DNA of 42,125 nucleotides, taken from the IMG/VR virus record IMGVR_UViG_2537561991_000019, positions 1-42,125 of that record; one strand, given 5' to 3'. A program made the position numbers and the translations under genes. Source of the stretch: a virus. Taxonomy: Duplodnaviria; Heunggongvirae; Uroviricota; Caudoviricetes. The first letter of the stretch is position 1. The number at the start of each line of letters is the position of its first letter. Shown here in pieces: positions 1,667-35,760 of this stretch. The notes below the pieces were generated by a model. That model was not told the origin of the DNA. It searched no databases and saw nothing but the letters and a program-made list of their open reading frames with translations.

Positions 1667-4600
1667 TCAGCTGATACTGATGCCTGCGGTGGCTTTCTTC
1701 ATCACCACAACCAGCAAATCGCTGATACTTGCTGTGGGATACCAGTTATTCACCAGCCATGCTGACACCGAAAACTCCAGCGTCATGTGACCGTGACCGG
1801 CAGGCATATCAATAACGCCACTGTAAATCAGCGTATTATCCAGCGCGGTACGGTTATAAATTTCAGCACCGTTTTTCCGCACTATCAGACGGCATGAGGA
1901 GTAAATATCAGTATGCTCTCTCTCATGTTTAGCGCCGCTGAATGCCACCGCCGGAATAACAATCTGCCGGTCAAACGGCTGATCGTCATAAACCCTGACG
2001 GTAATAGTCCCTGATGGCCACCGTTCCGGTGCACGGGAGTCCCGGGGGAAAGCTTTGCCCACTGTTTTAACGAGATCGCCTTCAATCTGGTTCGCGGACA
2101 GTTTTCCCAGAACCCGGCAGTTCTTGTTAATCGTGACGTTGTTGAGCGTCCCGGCGTTCGCATTCACGTTACCGCTGATATCCGCATTTCTCGCCGTCAG
2201 TCGCCCGTCCGGTGTCAGGGAAAATGCCGGAGGATTGCCACCACTGGTAATGGTGGGGGCCGTCAGGCGTTTCAGGAACACGTCATTCATGAATATCTGA
2301 TCACCCTGCGCCACAAACATCGGCGTTTCATTTCCGTTTGCCGGGTCAATAAACGCGATACGGTTAGCGGCAACCAGGAACTGGCTCAGTTTACCTTCCT
2401 CCGTGTCCTCCATGCTGAGGCCAATACCCGCGACATAATGTTTGCCGTCTTTGGTCTGCTCAATTTTGACGCCCCACATGGCATTCCATTTATCGTTGGC
2501 ATCTTTCCACTCTTTCGAAAACTCCTCCAGTTTGCTGGCGTTATCCTCCGTCAACTCGACTTTTTCCAGCAGCTCTTTACCGAGATGGGATTCGGTTATC
2601 TGGCCTTTGAAAAAATCCAGGTAACCTTCGGCATCATCGCTCGCCCGACCGACAGCCTCCACAAATGCCGATTTGCCAACGGTGTTCACACTGCGGATGT
2701 AAAAATAATAATCATGGCCCGGTTTGATATTGATACTGGCAGCTATCCAGTACAGCGCCGTGCCAAGATAGCGGGCTGTAGTTTCAACCTGCCTGATATC
2801 CGCAATCCGCTTTTCCGAGAACCAGAACTCAAACTGTACCGTCGGATCATAAACGGCAAGATGGGGCGTGGCGGTTATCTGAAAATAGCCCGGCGTCAGC
2901 TCAATCCGCGACGGCGCTGCCGGTGCGGCAATCCGGAACGATACCGATGCAGGATCGCCCTGCTGCCCCCAGGCATTTGCCGCCCGGACTGTCAGCCTGT
3001 AGCTTCCCAGCGCCAGCTGCCTGAAGCGGTATGTGGTTTCCGTCGTCCGGGCCGTGCTGACCAGCCGCTCACTGCCGTCATCCGCTGCCACGGTCAGGCG
3101 AAGCATAAAGCTCACACCCTTCACCACCTTCGGCGTATCCCAGCGCGCCAGCACCTGATATTCCCCGCTGTCTGCGGTGACTTCTGCGGTCAGGTGCTGC
3201 ACCGCTGGCGGCGTGACACCATTCACCGTGCCGCTCTGTTCGCCGTCAAAGTGCGCCCCGTTATCCACGATGGCCTCTTTTTCCGGCACATGCTGCACGG
3301 CGGTGATGGCATACGTGCCGTCGTCGTTCTCACGGATACTCACGCAGCGGAACAGTCGCTGGCGCAGCGTCGGCAGCTTCAGCCCCCATACGCTGTATTC
3401 AGCAACACCGTCAGGAACACGGCTCACTTTCACCTTCACGCCGTCGGTGACGGACTGAACCTCCACGCTGACCGGATTGCCACTTCCGTCAACCAGGCTT
3501 ATCAGCGTGGTACCGGAGGATGGCAGCGTGATTTCACGGTCGAGCGTCAGCGTCCGGGTCTGGCTGTTCACCGCCAGCACACGACCACCGGTGCTGATAC
3601 CGGCATAGTCATCATCACAGATTTCAATAACATCGCCCGGTACATGGCGAAGCCCTTCTGCGCCGACGCTGAAATCCACGGTCTGCGTTTCCAGCAGTTC
3701 TGTTTTAATCAGCCACAGCCCGGCGCGGTGTGCCTGCCCCCGACTGGTACAGCCAAAGGCATCCATCTTCGTGACGTTACGACCGTAACGGGCAATGGCC
3801 TGCGTGTCCTCCACAAGCTCTGTCGCCGTCTCCCAGCCGTTATCCGGGTCAATCCAGTTCACCTCAACGGCATTATGGCGATCCTTCAGGGCGCTGAAGC
3901 TGTAGCGGAACGGCGCGCCATCATCCGGCATCACCACATTACTGCGGTTATAGGTCCATACCTTATCCGATGGCCGGTCCTGCACGAACGTCAGCGTCTG
4001 CCCGTTCCATACCGGCATACAGCGCATCGCCGAACAGAAATCGCTGAGCACATCCCACGCCTTGCGCTGTGTGGTCAGCCAGGCATTACAGGTGATGCGC
4101 GGCTCCGTGCTGCCAAAGCCGTCCGGCACCGACTGGTCGCAGTAGTGGCCGATAACATACAGCGCCCATTTATCCACATCTGCCGCACCAAGACGTTTCC
4201 CCATGCCGTAGCGCGGGTGGGTCAGCATATCCCACAGACACCAGGCCATGTTGTTGCTGTATGCCGGTTTAAACGTTCCGTCCCAGATACCGCTGTATTG
4301 CCGCGTCTGCGGGTTATAGTTCGACGGCACCTGCAGAATACGCCCGCGAAGATGATAATTACGGCTCACCTGCTGGCTGCCGAACTGCTCCGAATCCACC
4401 TTTACGCCGACCAGTGCCGTGTTCGGGTAGCCCTGTTTCACATCGATGATTTCGGTGTATGACGACCAGAGCGTTTTGTTCTGCAGCTGGTCTGTGGTGC
4501 TGTCCGGCGTCATCCTGCGCATCCGGATATTGAACGGGCGCGGAGGCAGGTTATCCACCACCACCGAGGCCAGATACTGCGAGGTGGTTTTGCCCTTAAT

Positions 4601-25947: not shown

Positions 25948-26757
25948 TCAATGAACGGTATCGAGCAGCTTTAACAGCTCAGGGAATCGGGATTCGAAGA
26001 AATGCGGCTGTGTCTCGCGCGGATTTGCGGGACTGGTGATGTTCTTGCCGAACATGCAACCTTTCGCTGTCAGCGACCAGAATTTTTTGATGTTGTTAAT
26101 CGCAGTGCGGCTGTATCGTTCGCGCTGCTCGACGATCCCCAGTTTCACCATCTGGTGATATGCCTGATTAGCCGTCAGGCGTATACCATACTGCTTCAGC
26201 AGTGCACTCAGTGACAGTGTCGGGCGACTTGAGCCATCAGGCGCGTCAGCAGGAGCATCAATGGCATAGCGCGGTGCCAGATTCGGTAAGCCAACAGCCT
26301 CCTGGAGTTTCTGACAGGCACCAAGCACTGAAGAGTTAGACAGGTTTAATTCCCGGCGCATAAAGTCCAGCAGAATCACACCAGCCTGCATCTTGTCAGC
26401 AGCCTGTCCGGATAATTTTTCCGGTGCGCTGGTTACCATGTCGAAAGTACGGATCACCTTCAGATGGAATGACGGGCTGATCCACATTGCATAGGCATAC
26501 ACCAGTTCCTTGCAGACATACGTTCCCCGTTCATTTCCCCCATGAATCACACTCACCGGGTCAACACCCAAATTCTGGGTGTTGGTCAATTCATGAACAA
26601 GCTCAACAGTTTGTTGGCTGGAAAGAAACTTTCCTGGCTCCTTGGTTCTGGCATTTGCACCAGATGCTACTGCTGCGCGATGCAGATCGTTCAGGCTGTA
26701 ACGCCCATAAGCATCACGACGAACTTCAATACCATCAATGACCATCAGATTATTCAT
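25948..26757 (-). CDS. Phage protein with possible KilA-N-type N-terminal DNA-binding domain
   Basis: 269 aa beginning MNNLMVIDGIEVRRDAYGRYSLNDLHRAA; assignment weak. Confidence 0.35.
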   Translation of the reverse strand: MNNLMVIDGIEVRRDAYGRYSLNDLHRAAVASGANARTKEPGKFLSSQQTVELVHELTNTQNLGVDPVSVIHGGNERGTYVCKELVYAYAMWISPSFHLKVIRTFDMVTSAPEKLSGQAADKMQAGVILLDFMRRELNLSNSSVLGACQKLQEAVGLPNLAPRYAIDAPADAPDGSSRPTLSLSALLKQYGIRLTANQAYHQMVKLGIVEQRERYSRTAINNIKKFWSLTAKGCMFGKNITSPANPRETQPHFFESRFPELLKLLDTVH

Positions 26758-29448: not shown

Positions 29449-29669
29449 GCAGCACCTCCGAGATGCTTCATGTTTTTTCCGGAGCGAAAGGCTATAAGCG
29501 GCATACTGACGCGGTAATTACGGCCCAGCGGTTCACAAACCACCTTCTGACATTCACGGTCAACCAGGCTAACACGTAGAACATGCCCTGCAGGCGTGGT
29601 GTACCACTGACCCGGACGAGGACAACGGAAAGTCTGATTGGTAAAACGTTTGAAAATATTCCGGATCAT
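29445..29669 (-). CDS. Small hypothetical protein
   Basis: 74-aa ORF with ATGA-type overlaps to both neighbours. Confidence 0.3.
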   Translation of the reverse strand: MIRNIFKRFTNQTFRCPRPGQWYTTPAGHVLRVSLVDRECQKVVCEPLGRNYRVSMPLIAFRSGKNMKHLGGAA

Positions 29670-30109
29670 TTGCGCCCCCTTACCTCTGAAGAGTTCAGCG
29701 ACGAATGAATAAGACGGGCAAGAAATGCCGCATCGTTAATTCGGTCATACAGACTTACAGCCAGCGGTGATTCAGCTTTTTCCAGCATGGGATAAAGCTG
29801 CTGCAACCAGACCTGATGAATTGATGAAATGTAGGAATAGAGAACGCTGGCGTTATGTGCAACGTCGCTCGGTACAGAGGGCTTTGAAAGCTGTTTCTCC
29901 ATCTGGTTAAAGGCATTGATGTATGCCTCTTTGAACTGGGCAGCACGTTTACCCGTGAAACCCATAGCAAGAAACGCAAAGCCATCGCGGGTTATTTGAT
30001 AGCAAGGTAGTTTGCGAGTACCGCCGTTGGGCTGGCGTACCAAAATTGATGTCTCCGCAAAATTGCGGGCACAAAACTCTGGAGAACAATCCAAAATGCG
30101 AATCTTTTT
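29666..30109 (-). pseudogene. 3' fragment of a Rha-domain regulatory gene split by the IS66 insertion
   Basis: ...YQITRDGFAFLAMGFTGKRAAQFKEAYINAFNQME... is the remembered Rha core; the reading frame rejoins in frame with the fragment at 32809-32931 when the IS and one copy of the target duplication are removed. Confidence 0.7.
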
Positions 30110-30162
30110 GTAACCGGCTCATTTAAACCGTCTGGTCTGTTTCCTCCGGCTCTACAAAAATA

Positions 30163-30840
30163 ATGTCCATCATTTTTAATGGACACTATCGTATGAAACA
30201 CCGGACCTGGATCACTGAAGCTTTACGTCTTCACTTTGAAGAACATTTACCCCGGGTTGTGGCCGGGCGTCGCCTGGGTGTACCAAAATCAACAGTTTGT
30301 AGTATGTTCGTGCGCTTTCGGAGAGCTGGCCTTTCGTGGCCTTTGCCCGCAGGCATGTCGGAGCAGGAACTTGATGCCTGCCTTTACGGACAATTTTCCA
30401 CGGTACCAGTCGTACGTCCTGAAAGCACCGTTATATCCGAAGCCCCCGTGGTAAAAAAACGTCCCCGGCGGCCCAACTTCCCTTATGAGTTTAAAATCGC
30501 CTTAGTGGAGCAGTCACTGCAGCCCGGAGCCTGTGTGGCGCAGATCGCCCGGGAAAACGGAATCAACGATAACCTGCTCTTCAACTGGCGCCATCAATAC
30601 CGGAAAGGTGGCCTGCTGCCTTCCGGAAAAAATATGCCGGCACTGCTTCCCGTGACGTTAACGCCGGAGCCGGATAATAAAATCCCGGCCCCCGCACAGG
30701 AACCAGAGCAGATAAATACACCGTCCGACAGTCTGTGTTGTGAGCTGGTTCTGCCGGCCGGAACTCTCAGGCTTAAAGGTAAACTGACGCCGGCGTTATT
30801 ACAGACACTTATCCGCGAAATAAAAGGGAGCAGCCACTGA
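30163..30840 (+). CDS. IS66-family accessory protein (orfA)
   Basis: First ORF of the element with an HTH-like segment; stop overlaps the orfB start. Confidence 0.65.
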   Translation: MSIIFNGHYRMKHRTWITEALRLHFEEHLPRVVAGRRLGVPKSTVCSMFVRFRRAGLSWPLPAGMSEQELDACLYGQFSTVPVVRPESTVISEAPVVKKRPRRPNFPYEFKIALVEQSLQPGACVAQIARENGINDNLLFNWRHQYRKGGLLPSGKNMPALLPVTLTPEPDNKIPAPAQEPEQINTPSDSLCCELVLPAGTLRLKGKLTPALLQTLIREIKGSSH

Positions 30841-31187
30841 TGATATCTCTCCCTGCAGGTTCGCGTATCTGGCTGGTTGCAGGTATCACCGATATGCGAA
30901 ATGGCTTTAACGGCCTGGCATCAAAAGTTCAGAACGTCCTGAAGGATGACCCGTTCTCCGGACACCTGTTCATCTTCCGCGGACGCCGGGGTGACCAGAT
31001 AAAAGTGTTGTGGGCTGACAGTGACGGACTGTGCCTCTTCACCAAACGCCTGGAGCGGGGCCGCTTCGTCTGGCCAGTCACCCGTGACGGCAAGGTGCAC
31101 CTTACTCCGGCTCAGTTATCCATGCTTCTTGAAGGTATCAACTGGAAGCACCCGAAACGAACGGAACGCGCTGGAATCCGCATATAA
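30840..31187 (+). CDS. IS66-family accessory protein (orfB)
   Basis: 115 aa, MISLPAGSRIWLVAGITDMRNGFNGLA..., characteristic IS66 Orf2. Confidence 0.8.
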   Translation: MISLPAGSRIWLVAGITDMRNGFNGLASKVQNVLKDDPFSGHLFIFRGRRGDQIKVLWADSDGLCLFTKRLERGRFVWPVTRDGKVHLTPAQLSMLLEGINWKHPKRTERAGIRI

Positions 31188-31206
31188 CCCGTTGTAAAGT
31201 GAGGAT

Positions 31207-32779
31207 ATGGACACCTCACTTGCTCATGAGAACGCCCGCCTGCGGGCACTGTTGCAGACGCAACAGGACACCATCCGCCAGATGGCTGAATACAACCGCC
31301 TGCTCTCACAGCGGGTGGCGGCTTATGCTTCCGAAATCAACCGGCTGAAGGCGCTGGTTGCGAAACTGCAACGTATGCAGTTCGGTAAAAGCTCAGAAAA
31401 ACTTCGTGCAAAAACCGAACGGCAGATACAGGAAGCACAGGAGCGAATCAGCGCACTTCAGGAAGAAATGGCGGAAACGCTGGGTGAGCAATATGACCCG
31501 GTACTGCCATCCGCCCTGCGCCAGTCTTCAGCCCGTAAACCGTTACCGGCCTCACTTCCCCGTGAAACCCGGGTTATCCGGCCGGAAGAGGAATGCTGTC
31601 CTGCCTGTGGTGGTGAACTCAGTTCTCTGGGATGTGATGTGTCAGAGCAACTGGAGCTTATCAGCAGCGCCTTTAAGGTTATCGAAACACAACGTCCGAA
31701 ACAGGCCTGTTGCCGGTGCGACCATATCGTGCAGGCACCAGTACCTTCAAAACCCATTGCACGCAGTTATGCCGGAGCGGGGCTTCTGGCCCATGTTGTC
31801 ACCGGGAAATATGCAGACCATCTGCCGTTATACCGCCAGTCAGAAATATACCGTCGTCAGGGAGTGGAGCTGAGCCGTGCCACACTGGGGCGCTGGACAG
31901 GTGCTGTTGCTGAACTGCTGGAGCCGCTGTATGACGTCCTGCGCCAGTATGTGCTGAATGCCCGGTAAAGTCCATGCTGATGATATCCCCGTCCCGGTCC
32001 AGGAGCCGGGCAGCGGTAAAACCCGGACAGCCCGGCTGTGGGTCTACGTCCGTGATGACCGTAACGCCGGTTCACAGATGCCCCCGGCGGTCTGGTTCGC
32101 GTACAGTCCGGACCGGAAAGGTATCCATCCACAAAATCACCTGGCCGGTTACAGCGGTGTGCTTCAGGCCGATGCTTACGGTGGTTACCGGGCGTTATAC
32201 GAATCCGGCAGAATAACGGAAGTCGCGTGTATGGCTCATGCCCGGAGAAAAATCCACGATGTGCATGCAAGAGCGCCCACCTACATCACCACGGAAGCCC
32301 TGCAGCGTATCGGTGAACTGTATGCCATCGAGGCAGAGGTCCGGGGCTGTTCAGCAGAACAGCGTCTGGCGGCAAGAAAAGCCAGAGCCGCGCCACTGAT
32401 GCAGTCACTGTATGACTGGATACAGCAACAGATGAAAACACTGTCGCGTCACTCAGATACGGCAAAAGCGTTCGCATACCTGCTGAAACAGTGGGATGCA
32501 CTGAACGTGTACTGCAGTAATGGCTGGGTGGAAATCGACAACAACATCGCAGAGAACGCCTTACGGGGAGTGGCCGTAGGCCGGAAAAACTGGATGTTCG
32601 CGGGTTCCGACAGCGGTGGTGAACATGCGGCGGTGTTGTACTCGCTGATCGGCACATGCCGTCTGAACAATGTGGAGCCAGAAAAGTGGCTGCGTTACGT
32701 CATTGAACATATCCAGGACTGGCCGGCAAACCGGGTACGCGATCTGTTGCCCTGGAAAGTTGATCTGAGCTCTCAGTAA
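31207..32779 (+). pseudogene. IS66-family transposase (orfC) interrupted by a frameshift near 31958-31968
   Basis: Two overlapping ORFs (253 aa and 273 aa) together have the length and features of one IS66 transposase (leucine-zipper-like N-terminus, CPACGGEL zinc-finger-like motif, catalytic core). Confidence 0.7.
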
Positions 32780-32808
32780 ATATCAATACGGTTCTGACGA
32801 GTCGCTTA

Positions 32809-33537
32809 CATCTTTTTCAGAACATCGTCATGACGTTTAGAGAAGAAGTCAGCAACAGCCAAAGAAGATGTAACAGCCTGACCATCAACGATGGCAATTT
32901 CAGGTTGAGAGAGGGTTGGGAGAGTAGTCATAGTGACAGCCCCGGTAGTCAGTTTTTTAGAAAACTCACCACATGGGACGCCAATCACAGAGGTGGTGAG
33001 ACGTACAGGGTTGGCGTTACCGGAGACTACCGAACCCGGCCCGACCGAAGTCGGCCCTGTACGCCCCACCATAATTTGGGCGTAGCAATGCTCATGACAC
33101 GAAAAAACCGCATGAGCGCGGTTATGCTCAGTAATCAATTTCAGGACGCCAATCCCGGCACCCGCTTTATAAGGTGCCTGAACAGTGTAACGTCCCGGAA
33201 TGGCAGAATCAATGTGCTGGTGGTCCTTCACACTCAACAAAATCACGCCTGAATTTCCACAAAGGACTAAAGCACTCATGCGGGTAGTCTTTGCGAAGAT
33301 AGATAACGCGCTGAGTTTCTGGCTCCCAACGAATAACATGGACATAAAGCCCTCTTCCATCACGAAACCAGCGGTTAAGTTCCTGCACAACTCGCCCCCC
33401 ACAGTCAGGTAAAGTTCTCTGTGGTTACTTACAGCCAGGTGATTTGGTAATCTGCATTCATGCCGTAACAACAGGTGTTCAGCGACACTGACCACCAGCT
33501 GTTGCGACAAACGGTTATTTGCCGTTAAACTGTTCAT
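32809..33537 (-). pseudogene. 5' portion of the IS-disrupted gene; its last 41 codons are the Rha-domain N-terminus
   Basis: MTTLPTLSQPEIAIVDGQAVTSSLAVADFFSKRHDDVLKK runs into the IS inverted repeat. The open frame extends upstream to an ATGA overlap with the preceding gene, so the true start is unclear. Confidence 0.5.
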
Positions 33538-34097
33538 GCGTTAGTTTCTCCACAGACACAAAACGCCACGACGCCCGGAGCTGCACACTCGCGGGCGTCA
33601 CTCTTTTCTAGAGCGCAAAAGATTTTGTAGACCAGTGCTGCATGCTCCTGGAGCTTCGAAATTGACAGATACAACTCATCATTAATTGCTGTCTGCTCGT
33701 GTGGCTCCACTACCCCATCTTCGATTGCCGAACGAATCTGCTTTGAGTAACTCCCGATCTGTTCGATGACTTCCAGCAGGCGCTGGTTTATATCGGCGTT
33801 CTCTACTTCCTCAATTTCAGGAAGCGATACAAACACCCCACCAGCAGACTGTGCGACAGCATCCGCAATGTAGTGAGTGCCAGCCGCGCGCTGTAAAATC
33901 ATTGCCCATCCCAGCGGGAAAATCTGATCGCCATCTGCACGAAGGCGGTTGAATAAAGCGTTCTCTGTTACATCCAGCCACTCAGCAGCTTCAGCGTAAC
34001 CCCCCGGCAACGCCGCGATAGTTTTTCTGACAGCTTTCACGTACCACTCAGGCTGTTTTTCTACTTTCCAGTGATGCTTACCCACGGTTAGCCTCAT
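33534..34097 (-). CDS. Putative CII-like early regulator (assigned by position after cro)
   Basis: 187-aa ORF directly downstream of cro and translationally coupled to the next gene; no confident sequence-level family call. Confidence 0.35.
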   Translation of the reverse strand: MRLTVGKHHWKVEKQPEWYVKAVRKTIAALPGGYAEAAEWLDVTENALFNRLRADGDQIFPLGWAMILQRAAGTHYIADAVAQSAGGVFVSLPEIEEVENADINQRLLEVIEQIGSYSKQIRSAIEDGVVEPHEQTAINDELYLSISKLQEHAALVYKIFCALEKSDARECAAPGVVAFCVCGETNA

Positions 34098-34128: not shown

Positions 34129-34329
34129 TTAATCTTTCGGATAGATATCCGGTCTTAAGTCAGATTTCGTAATTGCACCTGACGTGCATTGCTCAAGTTT
34201 TTTAGCCAACACAAAACTGGCTTTTTTATAACCATTGAAAACCAGCCGTAAGTAGCCTGATGTTGAGCCAACTTTTCCGGCCAACTCGCCCTGCTGTTCT
34301 TTGGTTAAAGAGTCCCAATACGCTTTCAT
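34129..34329 (-). CDS. cro: Cro-like HTH repressor
   Basis: 66 aa, MKAYWDSLTKEQQGELAGKVGSTSGYLRLVFNGYKK..., HTH pattern; divergent from the cI-like gene; GGAGG 10 nt upstream of the ATG. Confidence 0.7.
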   Translation of the reverse strand: MKAYWDSLTKEQQGELAGKVGSTSGYLRLVFNGYKKASFVLAKKLEQCTSGAITKSDLRPDIYPKD

Positions 34330-34335
34330 ACAATA

Positions 34336-34402
34336 TGTACCTCCGATGTACATATTACATGATTGAGATGAACCTTCAAGATACTTGTACCCTATCGGTA
34401 CA
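34336..34402. promoter_or_regulatory. Right-operator-like region: two 17-bp palindromic operators in the cro/cI divergent promoter region
   Basis: TGTACC-TCCGA-TGTACA at 34336-34352 and TGTACC-CTATC-GGTACA at 34386-34402, between the cro start (34329) and cI start (34420); candidate -10/-35 elements overlap them. Confidence 0.55.
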
Positions 34403-34419
34403 AAGGTTTTAATTTCGTT

Positions 34420-35094
34420 ATGAAAACAGTCCATGACATCCGGCGGTCTAACGCCAGAAAACTGAGAGATGGTGTTGGCGGGAATTCTTCCTTTGCCACC
34501 ATGATTGATCGCGAGCCAACCCAGACCAGCAGGTTTATGGGAGATGGTGCTACTAAAAATATCGGTGACAGCATGGCACGGCACATCGAAAAATGTTTCG
34601 ACCTGCCTGTCGGATGGCTTGATCAAGAACACCAGACAACAAACATCACAAAAAAACCTGATGTTTCAATTACTAACAAACAAATAACGTTAGTCCCTGT
34701 CATATCATGGGTACAGGCCGGAGCATGGAAAGAAGTTGGCTATTCTGAGGTTGATTTGAGCACAGCAGAAACTTATCCCTGCCCTGTACCCTGTGGCGAA
34801 ATGACTTATATCTTGCGGGTGATTGGTGATTCAATGATTGATGAGTACCGCCCGGGAGACATGATTTTTGTTGATCCTGAAGTCCCTGCCTGCCACGGTG
34901 ACGACGTTATTGCATTGATGCACGATACAGGCGAAACCACCTTCAAGCGGTTGATAGAAGATGGAACACAGCGTTATCTCAAAGCATTAAACCCAAACTG
35001 GCCTGAGCCTTACATTAAGATTAACGGTAATTGCTCTATAATTGGTACAGTAATTTTCTCAGGAAAACCAAGAAGATACAAAATAAAGGCCTAA
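34420..35094 (+). CDS. cI: CI-type prophage repressor (N-terminal HTH, C-terminal S24 LexA-like autopeptidase domain)
   Basis: 224 aa; C-terminal RVIGDSM serine motif and an Ala-Gly candidate cleavage site (VQAGAW); divergent from cro; essentially leaderless. Confidence 0.85.
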   Translation: MKTVHDIRRSNARKLRDGVGGNSSFATMIDREPTQTSRFMGDGATKNIGDSMARHIEKCFDLPVGWLDQEHQTTNITKKPDVSITNKQITLVPVISWVQAGAWKEVGYSEVDLSTAETYPCPVPCGEMTYILRVIGDSMIDEYRPGDMIFVDPEVPACHGDDVIALMHDTGETTFKRLIEDGTQRYLKALNPNWPEPYIKINGNCSIIGTVIFSGKPRRYKIKA

Positions 35095-35106
35095 TCAATA
35101 TTTATA

Positions 35107-35129
35107 ACCTGCTTCGGCAGGTTTTTTTA
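35107..35129 (+). terminator. Intrinsic terminator after cI
   Basis: ACCTGC-TTCG-GCAGGT followed by TTTTTTT, 13 nt after the cI stop. Confidence 0.65.
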
Positions 35130-35132
35130 TAC

Positions 35133-35160
35133 TTGACAATGTACCCTTGAGATACATAAT
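35133..35160 (+). promoter_or_regulatory. PL-like early-left promoter with embedded operator
   Basis: -35 TTGACA (35133-35138), 16-nt spacer, -10 CATAAT (35155-35160); third operator copy TGTACC-CTTGA-GATACA at 35140-35156 overlaps spacer and -10. Confidence 0.5.
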
Positions 35161-35760
35161 GTATCTAAAAGAAACATGCCACAGGCAAGATTAAACAAAA
35201 TTTGCTTGTAACACGGCGTATGGCACATGCGTCGTTAGCGGTCTGGGGACGTTAAAGGGGACAATCCACTCCTTGCTCGGGCAAACAAACCAGGTAGCCG
35301 GAATGTGCAAGTCAATGAGGATGCTGATAAGACGCCTAACCAGCGTGGCGATTCGGTTTGACGCCTGGGAAGAGACCAGGGTGCAACGATGAGGGCATTT
35401 ATGGAGCCGCGACAAAGTGTGGTGCCGTAACTGGCTAAGTGCTCTCAGCGTTGTGGTAATCCGCGAAATGGCGCGGCGGTAAGTATGGCGGGGTTACTCT
35501 TTCCCCGTTGAGGACACCGGATTGTCAGGTTGACCATACGCCTGAGTGACAACCCCACCACAACAGCCACTGCTTTGGCGGTACCAGTTTGTGCACTTGC
35601 TTCCGGCTGGTACCGCTCTTTTTACAAAACAGAGAAGAGCATCACCGGACGACGGGCTCATAACCCAATCCATCCGGGCGGCTGCCACCGCAGGTGTTCT
35701 TCTCTGTTTTGTGGAGAAACCAACCGACCTTGCAGGGTCGATATGATGAGGAGCAGCAAA

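What the first reader, a model, noticed from the sequence alone, without database searches (positions are those of the whole stretch)
34336..35156. Three copies of a 17-bp palindromic operator (TGTACC-N5-GGTACA) flanking the cI gene
Two copies lie between the divergent cro and cI starts and a third is embedded between the -35 and -10 of a promoter just downstream of the cI terminator. This mirrors the lambda OR/OL logic with a different operator sequence, defining the immunity specificity of this prophage and a likely CI-repressed early-left promoter. The cI mRNA appears leaderless (-10-like TTTAAT about 8 nt before the ATG).
Basis: seen in the sequence. Interest (0 to 1): 0.45.

Follow-up and report, generated by a model that had tools for sequence, protein, structure and literature searches.

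The report
Operators of an e14-type prophage switch
These short palindromes are very probably the repressor-binding sites of a lambda-like on/off switch, almost identical to the one in the e14 prophage of E. coli K-12: real and well conserved, but ordinary and already annotated elsewhere.

Summary
The lambda-like reading holds, but the count is too low. Two degenerate sites were missed: OR2 (34369-34385, over the PR -35) and OL2 (35160-35176, just after the PL -10).

The resulting 3 + 2 layout recurs, at almost the same offsets from the cI start, next to homologous CI/Cro pairs in about 30 species, from Enterobacterales to Vibrio and Pseudomonas. Half-sites are conserved there while the central 5 bp and the inter-site DNA drift.

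The module is not new. CI differs by one residue from YmfK (CohE) of K-12 prophage e14, and Cro by two from YmfT. The region is 97-99% identical to phages cdtI, SfV and Stx2c, and 1324 of 5426 complete E. coli genomes carry it. The SfV GenBank record annotates exactly OR1-OR3 as a "putative operator region". Published K-12 dRNA-seq gives ymfK a leader of 0 nt. Binding by CI or Cro was not tested here, and I found no such test in the papers I could read.

In passing: the PL leader holds a covarying ~166-nt RNA that matches no Rfam family.

The parts
34336..34352 (.). OR1: operator TGTACCTCCGATGTACA. It covers about -7 to +10 of PR, and its centre holds the cro Shine-Dalgarno (GGAGG on the minus strand).
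   Evidence: Found at -84 from the cI ATG in about 30 homologous loci; mean 1.06 mismatches to the consensus.
34369..34385 (.). OR2: degenerate operator TGAACCTTCAAGATACT. It covers the PR -35 and is centred at -43 from the PRM start. It abuts OR3.
   Evidence: 3 mismatches. The same degenerate site sits 17 bp (25 loci) or 16 bp (7 loci) upstream of OR3 in relatives. It is 76% identical to OL1 (family D5).
34386..34402 (.). OR3: perfect operator TGTACCCTATCGGTACA. Its left half forms the PRM -35 and it fills the PRM spacer.
   Evidence: Half-sites carry 1.79 bits against 0.36 bits for the central 5 bp across 32 non-redundant loci. The site is perfect in 19 of 32.
35140..35156 (.). OL1: operator TGTACCCTTGAGATACA in the PL spacer, overlapping the -10 by 2 nt.
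   Evidence: Found at +720/721 from the cI ATG in most enteric relatives. Half-sites 1.90 bits against 0.52 for the centre.
35160..35176 (.). OL2: degenerate operator TGTATCTAAAAGAAACA, 3 bp after OL1, covering about -7 to +10 of PL.
   Evidence: The left half TGTACC is conserved in most relatives; the right half is GAAACA-like or lost. Edwardsiella phage EPP-1 has TGTACTTATAAGATACA here.
34352..34379 (-). PR (predicted): -35 TTGAAG (34379..34374), 16-nt spacer, -10 TAATAT (34357..34352). It drives cro and the cII-like gene.
   Evidence: Read from the sequence. It matches 8/12, below the scan threshold. The -10 positions 2, 5 and 6 are highly conserved. Inferred, not mapped.
34385..34413 (+). 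PRM (predicted): -35 TTGTAC (34385-34390), 17-nt spacer, -10 TTTAAT (34408-34413). The start falls at the A of the cI ATG (34420).
   Evidence: A TnTAAT-like hexamer lies 6-7 nt before the ATG in relatives, with no conserved SD. The K-12 ymfK TSS has a leader of 0 nt.
35133..35160 (+). PL: TTGACA, 16-nt spacer, CATAAT.
   Evidence: 11/12. Annotated as a promoter in phage Ayreon with the identical sequence. TTGACA and the spacing are conserved in relatives.
34420..35094 (+). cI repressor, 224 aa, ortholog of e14 YmfK/CohE.
   Evidence: Pfam Peptidase_S24. One residue differs from K-12 YmfK. The N-terminal profile hits PDB 5d50 and 7nkv.
34129..34329 (-). cro, 66 aa, ortholog of e14 YmfT/CroE.
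   Evidence: Weak YdaS/HTH_3 Pfam hits. Two residues differ from YmfT. Homologs are present in all related loci that could be checked.
35106..35129 (+). Intrinsic terminator of cI.
   Evidence: Conserved in relatives.
35214..35379 (+). Side observation: a conserved structured RNA element in the PL leader. It lies just outside the immunity cassette, whose boundary is at about 35194-35206.
   Evidence: No Rfam match.

Best explanation
This is the immunity region of a lambdoid prophage of the e14/SfV/cdtI immunity type. Five 17-bp sites with the half-site TGTAC(C) are the shared operators of the CI repressor (cI, 34420-35094) and of Cro.

In the lysogen (inferred), CI dimers occupy three groups of sites:
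- OR1, over the PR -10/+1 and the cro ribosome-binding site.
- OR2, over the PR -35.
- OL1/OL2, over the PL spacer, -10 and +1.
This silences both early operons.

cI itself is transcribed from the weak promoter PRM as a leaderless mRNA that starts at its ATG. OR3 overlaps the PRM -35 and spacer, so occupancy by Cro, or by excess CI, would shut PRM off. CI at OR2 is centred at -43 of PRM, the geometry lambda CI uses to activate PRM, so activation is plausible but only inferred.

DNA damage would trigger RecA-stimulated self-cleavage of CI at Ala100-Gly101 by the Ser138/Lys176 dyad, releasing PR and PL.

Shown by computation or literature: the sites, their non-random occurrence, their conservation with the CI/Cro pair, the promoter overlaps, the leaderless start in the K-12 ortholog, and the S24 motifs.
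Inferred: who binds where, the affinity order, cooperativity, and activation.
For: Statistics: 3 hits at up to 1 mismatch against 0.03 expected. The two 3-mismatch sites fall immediately beside strong sites.

Architecture conserved across about 30 species, with CI N-terminal domains from 99% down to 55% identical: OR1 at -84, OR2 at -51, OR3 at -34, OL1 at +721 and OL2 at +741 from the cI ATG. The OR1-OR3 spacing is 50 bp in 30 of 32 loci.

Phylogenetic footprint: OR3 half-sites 1.79 bits against 0.36 for the centre; OL1 1.90 against 0.52; inter-site DNA 0.67.

Population data, among 87 loci with the same CI: 6 of 60 half-site positions vary against 17 of 25 central positions (Fisher P = 1.6e-7).

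Specificity controls: H-19B CI (41% identical DNA-binding domain) has TTTATC/GATAAA-type repeats. mEp460 shares the PL leader from about 35206 onward but has another repressor, other palindromes and no TGTACC site.

Proteins: S24 domain; the C-terminal domain aligns to the lambda CI C-terminal domain; the N-terminal profile hits the repressor DNA-binding domain of 5d50 at E 2.6e-9; Cro homologs co-occur.

Identity with e14: YmfK differs at 1 residue, YmfT at 2.

K-12 data: the ymfK TSS has a leader of 0 nt, and no TSS is listed at the PR or PL positions in the lysogen. Genes on both arms co-vary with the SOS genes sulA and recN in the 'YmfT iModulon'. sfiC of e14 is SOS-inducible but not LexA-controlled.

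Annotation: the SfV GenBank 'putative operator region' equals window 34335-34403, and the Ayreon promoter equals PL.
Against: - No binding or reporter experiment was available for this operator set. The SfV and e14 genome papers could not be read.
- Pfam detects no HTH family in the CI N-terminal domain, even at E up to 10. Only the PDB profile search does.
- The best consensus matches are OR3 (on PRM) and OL1, not the PR-proximal sites. That is the reverse of lambda's CI affinity order if match to consensus predicts affinity.
- OR2 and OR3 abut, 17 bp centre to centre, so the dimers would sit on roughly opposite DNA faces. This does not fit lambda-style adjacent cooperativity.
- PR matches the sigma-70 consensus at only 8/12, and its start is unmapped.
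Confidence: 0.9

Rival explanations
1. Same parts, different logic. CI and Cro do bind these sites, but the switch is not wired like lambda. The strongest sites would be OR3 and OL1. CI would mainly autorepress at PRM and block PL, with OR1/OR2 filled through long-range OL-OR contacts. Alternatively OR2 and OR3 would be mutually exclusive, and there would be no PRM activation.
For: OR3 and OL1 are the closest to consensus in the window and across relatives: mean mismatches 0.50 and 0.48, against 1.06 for OR1, 2.69 for OR2 and 3.6 for OL2. OR2-OR3 are 16-17 bp apart and OR1-OR2 33 bp apart, unlike lambda's 23-24 bp. OR and OL are only about 0.8 kb apart.
Against: Match to a 12-position consensus is a poor predictor of affinity in the 434 and P22 systems, where central and flanking bases matter (my own knowledge). 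OR2 centred at -43 of PRM reproduces lambda's activating geometry. K-12 data show PRM active while no TSS is listed at PR or PL, which any of these variants also predicts.
Confidence: 0.3
2. The palindromes act at the RNA level, as hairpins that terminate transcription or mask the cro ribosome-binding site, rather than as protein-binding DNA.
For: The scan calls OR3 plus the downstream T-rich stretch terminator-like. OR1 would place the cro SD in a hairpin loop.
Against: - The half-site sequence, not merely its complementarity, is the same at five sites and in about 30 species, with no compensatory changes. The 'loops' vary freely.
- The T-rich tail after OR3 is not conserved.
- With the predicted starts, the PR and PL transcripts begin inside OR1 and OL2, and PRM starts downstream of OR3, so these transcripts carry no complete palindrome.
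Confidence: 0.03
3. The sites are bound by some other protein, such as a host factor, LexA, or the neighbouring CII-like protein, and not by CI or Cro.
For: Co-occurrence cannot by itself separate CI from Cro, or from the adjacent CII-like gene (Phage_CP76), which is also part of the cassette.
Against: - The sites lie on core promoter elements, which are repressor positions and not activator positions.
- They persist in hosts as distant as Vibrio and Pseudomonas, which argues against a host-specific factor.
- They are replaced when the repressor gene is replaced, although the flanking leader is kept.
- The sequence is not a LexA box (CTGT-N8-ACAG; my own knowledge).
Confidence: 0.04
4. Chance palindromes.
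For: Two unrelated 2-mismatch hits occur at 3735 and 4707, so loose matches do arise by chance.
Against: 3 hits against 0.03 expected at up to 1 mismatch, all within 820 bp around cI, at conserved offsets in about 30 species.
Confidence: 0.005

Closest known systems
e14 cryptic prophage of E. coli K-12: ymfK (cohE) repressor, ymfT (croE) and their intergenic region
   Same: CI differs from YmfK at 1 residue (V4I) and Cro from YmfT at 2. OR1, OR2, OR3, OL1 and OL2 lie at the same positions, and all half-sites are identical except OL2 position 5 (T in the window, C in e14). Differences in OR fall in operator centres and between sites. ymfK mRNA is leaderless. This immunity module is present in 1324 of 5426 complete E. 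coli genomes.
   Different: The sequence downstream of OL2 differs: e14 runs into ymfJ-xisE-intE, whereas the window has a roughly 570-nt leader followed by yfdP/yfdQ-like genes. The window prophage has lambda-like structural genes related to mEp460 and PhiR phages, whereas e14 is a 15-kb remnant.
Phages SfV, SfIV, cdtI, Ayreon, 2H10 and Stx2c-converting phages (same immunity module)
   Same: 96.8-99.4% nucleotide identity over cro-cI-PL. The SfV record annotates 26377-26445, which equals window 34335-34403, as a 'putative operator region'. Ayreon annotates the PL promoter.
   Different: SfV and SfIV carry an insertion or replacement downstream of PL (75% coverage). The records I read annotate no OL operator.
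Bacteriophage lambda OR/OL-CI-Cro switch
   Same: - Divergent cI and cro.
- Three 17-bp palindromic operators in OR that overlap PR and PRM.
- Operators on PL.
- Leaderless cI mRNA from PRM.
- An S24 self-cleaving C-terminal domain that aligns to the lambda CI C-terminal domain (E 2e-9).
- OR2 centred near -42/-43 of PRM.
   Different: - The operator sequence differs (TGTACC-N5-GGTACA against TATCACCGC/GCGGTGATA-type).
- The spacings differ: OR1-OR2 33 bp and OR2-OR3 17 bp, against 24 and 23 bp in lambda.
- There are two rather than three recognisable OL sites.
- OL lies about 0.8 kb from OR instead of 2.4 kb, because rexAB is absent.
- The best consensus site is OR3.
- No N gene follows PL.
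- The N-terminal domain is not detectably related by sequence to the lambda CI N-terminal domain.
Salmonella phage SPC32H repressor Rep (PDB 5d50)
   Same: [quoted passage not shown]
   Different: As I recall, Rep lacks an S24 self-cleavage domain, works as a tetramer and is inactivated by an antirepressor. The CI here has a complete S24 domain. I could not retrieve the Rep operator sequences.

Membership tests
Lambdoid CI/Cro immunity switch | Divergently transcribed repressor and cro genes separated by a short regulatory region | tested here: met
   cI 34420-35094 (+) and cro 34329..34129 (-), with 90 bp between the start codons.
Lambdoid CI/Cro immunity switch | Repressor with an N-terminal helix-turn-helix DNA-binding domain | tested here: met
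   Pfam finds none. A profile of 23 N-terminal domains hits the DNA-binding domains of solved phage repressors: 5d50 at E 2.6e-9 and 7nkv at E 3e-5. T34, Q35, S37 and R38 are invariant or nearly so.
Lambdoid CI/Cro immunity switch | C-terminal S24 (LexA-like) self-cleaving domain with an Ala-Gly site and a Ser/Lys dyad | tested here: met
   Peptidase_S24 at E 1.5e-26. Alignment to the lambda CI C-terminal domain places Lys176 at the FKKL/FKRL motif. Ala100-Gly101 and Ser138 are present.
Lambdoid CI/Cro immunity switch | Several similar palindromic operators overlapping PR and PRM | tested here: met
   OR1, OR2 and OR3 overlap the predicted PR -10/+1, the PR -35 and the PRM -35/spacer. They are conserved in about 30 species.
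Lambdoid CI/Cro immunity switch | Operators of the same sequence on an early-left promoter beyond cI | tested here: met
   OL1 and OL2 lie on TTGACA-16-CATAAT.
Lambdoid CI/Cro immunity switch | Leaderless cI mRNA from PRM | tested here: met
   There is no SD, and a -10-like hexamer lies 6-7 nt before the ATG in the window and in relatives. dRNA-seq of the K-12 ortholog ymfK gives a leader length of 0. The window strain itself was not assayed.
Lambdoid CI/Cro immunity switch | CI and Cro physically bind the operators with opposite preference orders; CI binds cooperatively | not testable with these tools
   This needs EMSA or footprinting. No such data turned up in the papers I could reach.
Lambdoid CI/Cro immunity switch | RecA-dependent induction | not testable with these tools
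   Only indirect evidence. Papers call YmfK/CohE SOS-sensitive. e14 genes co-vary with sulA and recN.
e14/SfV/cdtI immunity group (same repressor specificity) | Near-identical repressor DNA-binding domain and Cro | tested here: met
   One residue differs from YmfK and two from YmfT. The N-terminal domain is 100% identical in SfV, cdtI and Stx2c phages.
e14/SfV/cdtI immunity group (same repressor specificity) | Same operator half-sites at the same positions | tested here: met
   Among 87 same-immunity loci only 6 of 60 half-site positions vary.
e14/SfV/cdtI immunity group (same repressor specificity) | Cross-immunity in vivo (a lysogen of one excludes the others) | not testable with these tools
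   This needs superinfection tests.

The most novel reading that the evidence does not exclude
The operators are ordinary, but what they control may not be. The first roughly 0.5 kb transcribed from the CI-repressed PL is not a gene. It is a leader that contains a ~166-nt RNA (35214-35379) with four covarying helices and a possible pseudoknot.

This RNA matches none of the 4227 Rfam families. It recurs in P1-like phages (between a tRNA gene and ban), in epsilon15-like phages (just upstream of tRNA-Arg) and in many lambdoid phages.

If it is an undescribed functional RNA class, for example an N-independent antitermination element or a stable RNA processed together with tRNAs, then this immunity switch gates a new phage RNA. 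A smaller novel reading concerns the switch itself: its site hierarchy (OR3 and OL1 closest to consensus, OR2 abutting OR3) may reflect wiring that is not lambda-like.
Probability: 0.3. Interest if true: 0.6.

Novelty: already known. Interest (0 to 1): 0.15.

Why it matters
For the finding itself, the value is limited. It assigns this prophage to the e14/SfV/cdtI/Stx2c immunity group, which about a quarter of complete E. coli genomes carry. A resident e14-type repressor should therefore repress incoming or co-resident phages of the group, including Cdt-I and Stx2c converting phages, and the reverse should also hold.

The comparative analysis adds an explicit five-site operator map and a consensus for YmfK/CohE and YmfT/CroE, two 'y-genes' of K-12 still labelled putative. 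These predictions can be tested directly.

The unclassified structured RNA in the PL leader is the more interesting lead, but it lies outside the finding.

Tried and rejected
Literature:
- The SfV genome paper, the e14 analysis paper, the SPC32H Rep paper and the P1 genome paper are not held. I therefore could not check whether the operators were described in print beyond the GenBank feature.
- Full-text searches for TGTACC plus operator returned only primers. Searching PDB codes returned noise.

Searches that added little:
- The search for homologous proteins with the 91-aa N-terminal domain gave mostly fragments of the same protein.
- The IMG/VR scan with the N-terminal alignment returned 80 loci with 99-100% identical N-terminal domains. 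These were useless for divergence, but I reused them for the polymorphism test.
- Pfam finds no HTH in the CI N-terminal domain; the PDB profile search resolved this.

Features explained away:
- The perfect palindrome AGATACATAATGTATCT (35150-35166) is the junction of OL1's right half and OL2's left half, not a separate element.
- The terminator-like call at 34385-34403 is OR3 itself.
- The hits at 3735 and 4707 (2 mismatches) lie in structural genes and were treated as chance.

Leader RNA: Rfam and ARAGORN do not identify it.
Full report
THE OBSERVATION

The three sites are TGTACCTCCGATGTACA at 34336-34352, the perfect TGTACCCTATCGGTACA at 34386-34402, and TGTACCCTTGAGATACA at 35140-35156. 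At up to one mismatch these are the only three matches in 42,125 bp. Dinucleotide-preserving shuffles give 0.03 on average and never three. At up to two mismatches, two more hits appear far away in structural genes (3735 and 4707), as chance predicts.

GENE CONTEXT

The 224-aa ORF at 34420-35094 (+) carries a Peptidase_S24 domain (E 1.5e-26). The 66-aa ORF starting at the ATG at 34329 (-) is a weak YdaS/HTH_3 match. The next minus-strand gene is a Phage_CP76 CII-like protein.

An intrinsic terminator at 35106-35123 follows cI. Directly after it comes TTGACA-16-CATAAT at 35133-35160, an 11/12 sigma-70 match. The third palindrome fills that spacer and overlaps the -10 by 2 nt.

At three mismatches, two extra matches fall right beside the strong sites. 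The background rate at this stringency is about 12 per 42 kb.
- 34369-34385, TGAACCTTCAAGATACT, abuts the perfect site.
- 35160-35176, TGTATCTAAAAGAAACA, lies 3 bp after the third site.

Alone this would be only suggestive. The comparative data below settle it. I call the five sites OR1, OR2, OR3, OL1 and OL2.

The perfect palindrome AGATACATAATGTATCT (35150-35166) that I noticed is simply the back-to-back junction of OL1 and OL2.

PROMOTER GEOMETRY (read from the sequence; inferred)

- PR, on the minus strand, is TTGAAG (34379..34374), a 16-nt spacer, then TAATAT (34357..34352). OR1 then spans about -7 to +10 and holds the cro Shine-Dalgarno GGAGG in its centre. OR2 covers the -35.
- PRM, on the plus strand, is TTGTAC (34385-34390), a 17-nt spacer, then TTTAAT (34408-34413), followed by 6 nt and the ATG. 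The start therefore falls on the A of the ATG. OR3's left half is the -35 hexamer. OR2 is centred at -43, the position from which lambda CI activates PRM (my own knowledge).
- At PL, OL1 spans about -27 to -11 and OL2 about -7 to +10. The -10 hexamer is formed by the OL1-TAA-OL2 junction.

RELATIVES

tblastn with the first 91 residues of CI found identical domains in SfV, cdtI and Stx2c phages. It also found domains 55-60% identical in Edwardsiella phage EPP-1, a Vibrio phage and Pseudomonas phages, and a 41% identical domain in H-19B.

EPP-1 has this layout:
- OR: TGTACCTCCTAGATACA, 16 bp, TGAACCTGCAAGATACT, then directly TGTACCAATTTGGTACA.
- After its repressor gene: a terminator, TTGACA, A, TGTACCCATGCGGTACA, TAA, TGTACTTATAAGATACA.

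That is the same 3 + 2 layout. The Vibrio and Pseudomonas phages keep the three OR sites. H-19B has different repeats (TTTATC/GATAAA).

A scan of one genome per species with an alignment of the N-terminal domain gave 31 loci, with 99% to 55% identity. In nearly all of them the sites start at these offsets from the cI ATG:
- OR1 at -84
- OR2 at -51
- OR3 at -34
- OL1 at about +721
- OL2 at about +741

The OR1-OR3 spacing is 50 bp in 30 of 32 non-redundant loci. OR2-OR3 is 17 bp in 25 loci and 16 bp in 7.

Information content shows a textbook footprint:
- OR3 half-sites 1.79 bits, central 5 bp 0.36.
- OL1 half-sites 1.90 bits, centre 0.52.
- DNA between sites 0.67; DNA after OL2 0.34.

The centres of OR1 and OR2 are less free because they hold the cro SD and the PR -35. 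Cro homologs with a conserved YLRLVF/YLRQVL helix accompany the repressor in every locus that could be checked.

POPULATION-LEVEL TEST

Among 87 loci with an identical or nearly identical CI (IMG/VR, phages, e14), the variable positions are:
- 6 of 60 half-site positions.
- 17 of 25 operator-centre positions.
- 18 of 95 other positions.

Fisher tests give P = 1.6e-7 for half-site against centre and P = 5.8e-6 for centre against other. So half-sites are protected, and centres are, if anything, hypervariable.

MODULE-SWAP CONTROL

Phage mEp460 shares the sequence downstream of PL from about window 35206 onward. It has a different repressor and Cro, different palindromes (TTGCGYRA-type) and no TGTACC-type site at up to 3 mismatches. 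The operators travel with the repressor gene.

IDENTITY OF THE MODULE

The cro-cI-PL stretch is 99.4% identical to phage cdtI, 98.7% to Stx2c phages, 98.3% to Ayreon and 96.8% to SfV. In RefSeq E. coli the two genes are annotated ymfK and ymfT, and 1324 of 5426 complete genomes carry the region.

Against K-12 MG1655 e14, CI differs from YmfK only at V4I, and Cro from YmfT at two residues. The OR differences fall in operator centres and between sites.

The SfV GenBank record marks 26377-26445 as a 'putative operator region'. That is ATGTACC...GGTACAA, exactly OR1 through OR3. Ayreon annotates the PL hexamers as a promoter. The rest of the window is a lambda-like siphovirus prophage related to mEp460 and PhiR phages.

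PROTEINS

The CI C-terminal domain aligns to the lambda CI C-terminal domain (1f39, E 1.9e-9) and has Ala100-Gly101, Ser138 and Lys176. Pfam sees no HTH in the N-terminal domain. A profile of 23 N-terminal domains hits the DNA-binding domain of the SPC32H repressor (5d50, E 2.6e-9) and a phage CI N-terminal domain (7nkv, E 3e-5).

EXPERIMENTAL SUPPORT FROM THE LITERATURE

Romero et al. 2014 (PMC4681348) list ymfK among five leaderless E. coli mRNAs. Their supplement gives the TSS at the first base of the start codon, a leader of 0. Between old coordinates 1196078 and 1207102 it lists no TSS at the positions expected for PR or PL. This fits a repressed lysogen in which only PRM fires.

[quoted passage not shown] It is most active under oxidative stress or in fur mutants (PMC10602906, PMC12132413).

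CohE is described as a CI-like, SOS-responsive repressor, and the e14 division inhibitor as SOS-inducible but not LexA-controlled (bioRxiv 10.1101/2020.11.19.390815). I found no footprint, EMSA or ChIP for these operators, and the two genome papers most likely to discuss them are not held.

MECHANISM AND CAVEATS

The best explanation is a lambda-type switch, as set out in the Best explanation section. Two features are not lambda-like and are unresolved:
- The sites closest to consensus are OR3 and OL1, not the PR-proximal ones.
- OR2 abuts OR3, which puts neighbouring dimers on roughly opposite faces of the DNA.

Whether this reflects Cro's preference, long-range OL-OR cooperation over 0.8 kb, or just the weakness of consensus match as an affinity proxy cannot be decided computationally.

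SIDE OBSERVATION: AN RNA IN THE PL LEADER

PL is followed by about 570 nt without a credible ORF, ending in a GC-rich hairpin plus T-run at about 35578-35626. The leader folds more stably than shuffles (z = -3.0).

Its segment 35214-35379 has homologs in several phage groups:
- P1, P7, RCS47 and SJ46, between tRNA-Met(cat) and ban.
- phiV10, SPN9TCW and other epsilon15-like phages, just upstream of tRNA-Arg(tct).
- Many lambdoid phages.

An invariant 19-mer occurs in at least 119 IMG/VR contigs. On 40 diverse copies, a five-helix model is 98.9% paired, against 26-44% when the partners are slid. Nine pairs change on both sides, and the covariation score is 0.255 against 0.111 in shuffles (0 of 500 shuffles reach it). 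Columns 85-102 were fixed by the search pattern, so their invariance is by construction, and the putative pseudoknot (GCACAU with AUGUGC) cannot be tested.

No Rfam family matches it in the window or in four other phages. 46 of 126 copies have a same-strand tRNA within 200 nt. I could not identify it.

VERDICT

The finding is a correct reading of an ordinary, already catalogued feature. Its interest is low. The RNA in the PL leader deserves its own look.

Noticed in passing
window 35214-35379 (+), within the PL leader 35167-35736: A ~166-nt conserved structured RNA-like element with covarying helices: 9 pairs with two-sided changes and 98.9% pairing, against 26-44% in slid controls. It has hairpin loops UCACCA/UAACCA and GAAGAGA and a possible pseudoknot. 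No Rfam 15 match. Homologs occur in P1-like phages (tRNA-Met to ban interval), in epsilon15-like phages (just upstream of tRNA-Arg) and in many lambdoid phages, and in at least 119 IMG/VR contigs. Function unknown.
   Followed up: partly
window about 30100-32800: An IS66-family element: orfA 30163-30840, tnpB 30840-31187, and tnpC split into two ORFs at 31207-31968 and 31958-32779. It interrupts a Rha/antirepressor-like gene. The N-terminal piece ends near 32806 (minus strand) and the C-terminal piece is ORF 29666..30094.
   Followed up: partly
window 32989-33076 (-) and 33101-33177 (-): Rfam C4 antisense RNA (82 bits) and isrK (59 bits) lie between the cII-like gene and the IS-disrupted antirepressor gene. 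This is a P1/P7-type c4-ant or Gifsy isrK second immunity module, apparently disabled here by the IS.
   Followed up: no
operator centres: 34342-34346, 34375-34379, 34392-34396, 35146-35150, 35166-35170: Among prophages with the same CI, the central 5 bp of the operators are polymorphism hotspots: 17 of 25 positions vary against 18 of 95 for other non-coding positions (P = 6e-6). This could be neutral drift, or tuning of affinity.
   Followed up: partly
L120 (K-12 e14), L001 (SfV), L088-L102, just after OL2: In e14, SfV and many enteric relatives the sequence after OL2 is a different conserved block, AACAGGCAGGACGCCCACGAAGTAGCC. It persists across species whose immunity regions have diverged. 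The window has another sequence here. Unexplained.
   Followed up: no
K-12 e14, old coordinates 1203046 and 1203132 (reverse strand), equivalent to the window's cII-like gene region at about 33500-33600: Published dRNA-seq lists two reverse-strand TSSs inside or after ymfL, pointing towards cI. These may be PRE-like establishment promoters.
   Followed up: no
window 35578-35626 (+): A GC-rich hairpin GGCGGTACCAG...CTGGTACCGC followed by TCTTTTT, about 460 nt downstream of PL and before the first plausible gene (ATG 35737). No N-like gene is present, so read-through would need another mechanism.
   Followed up: no
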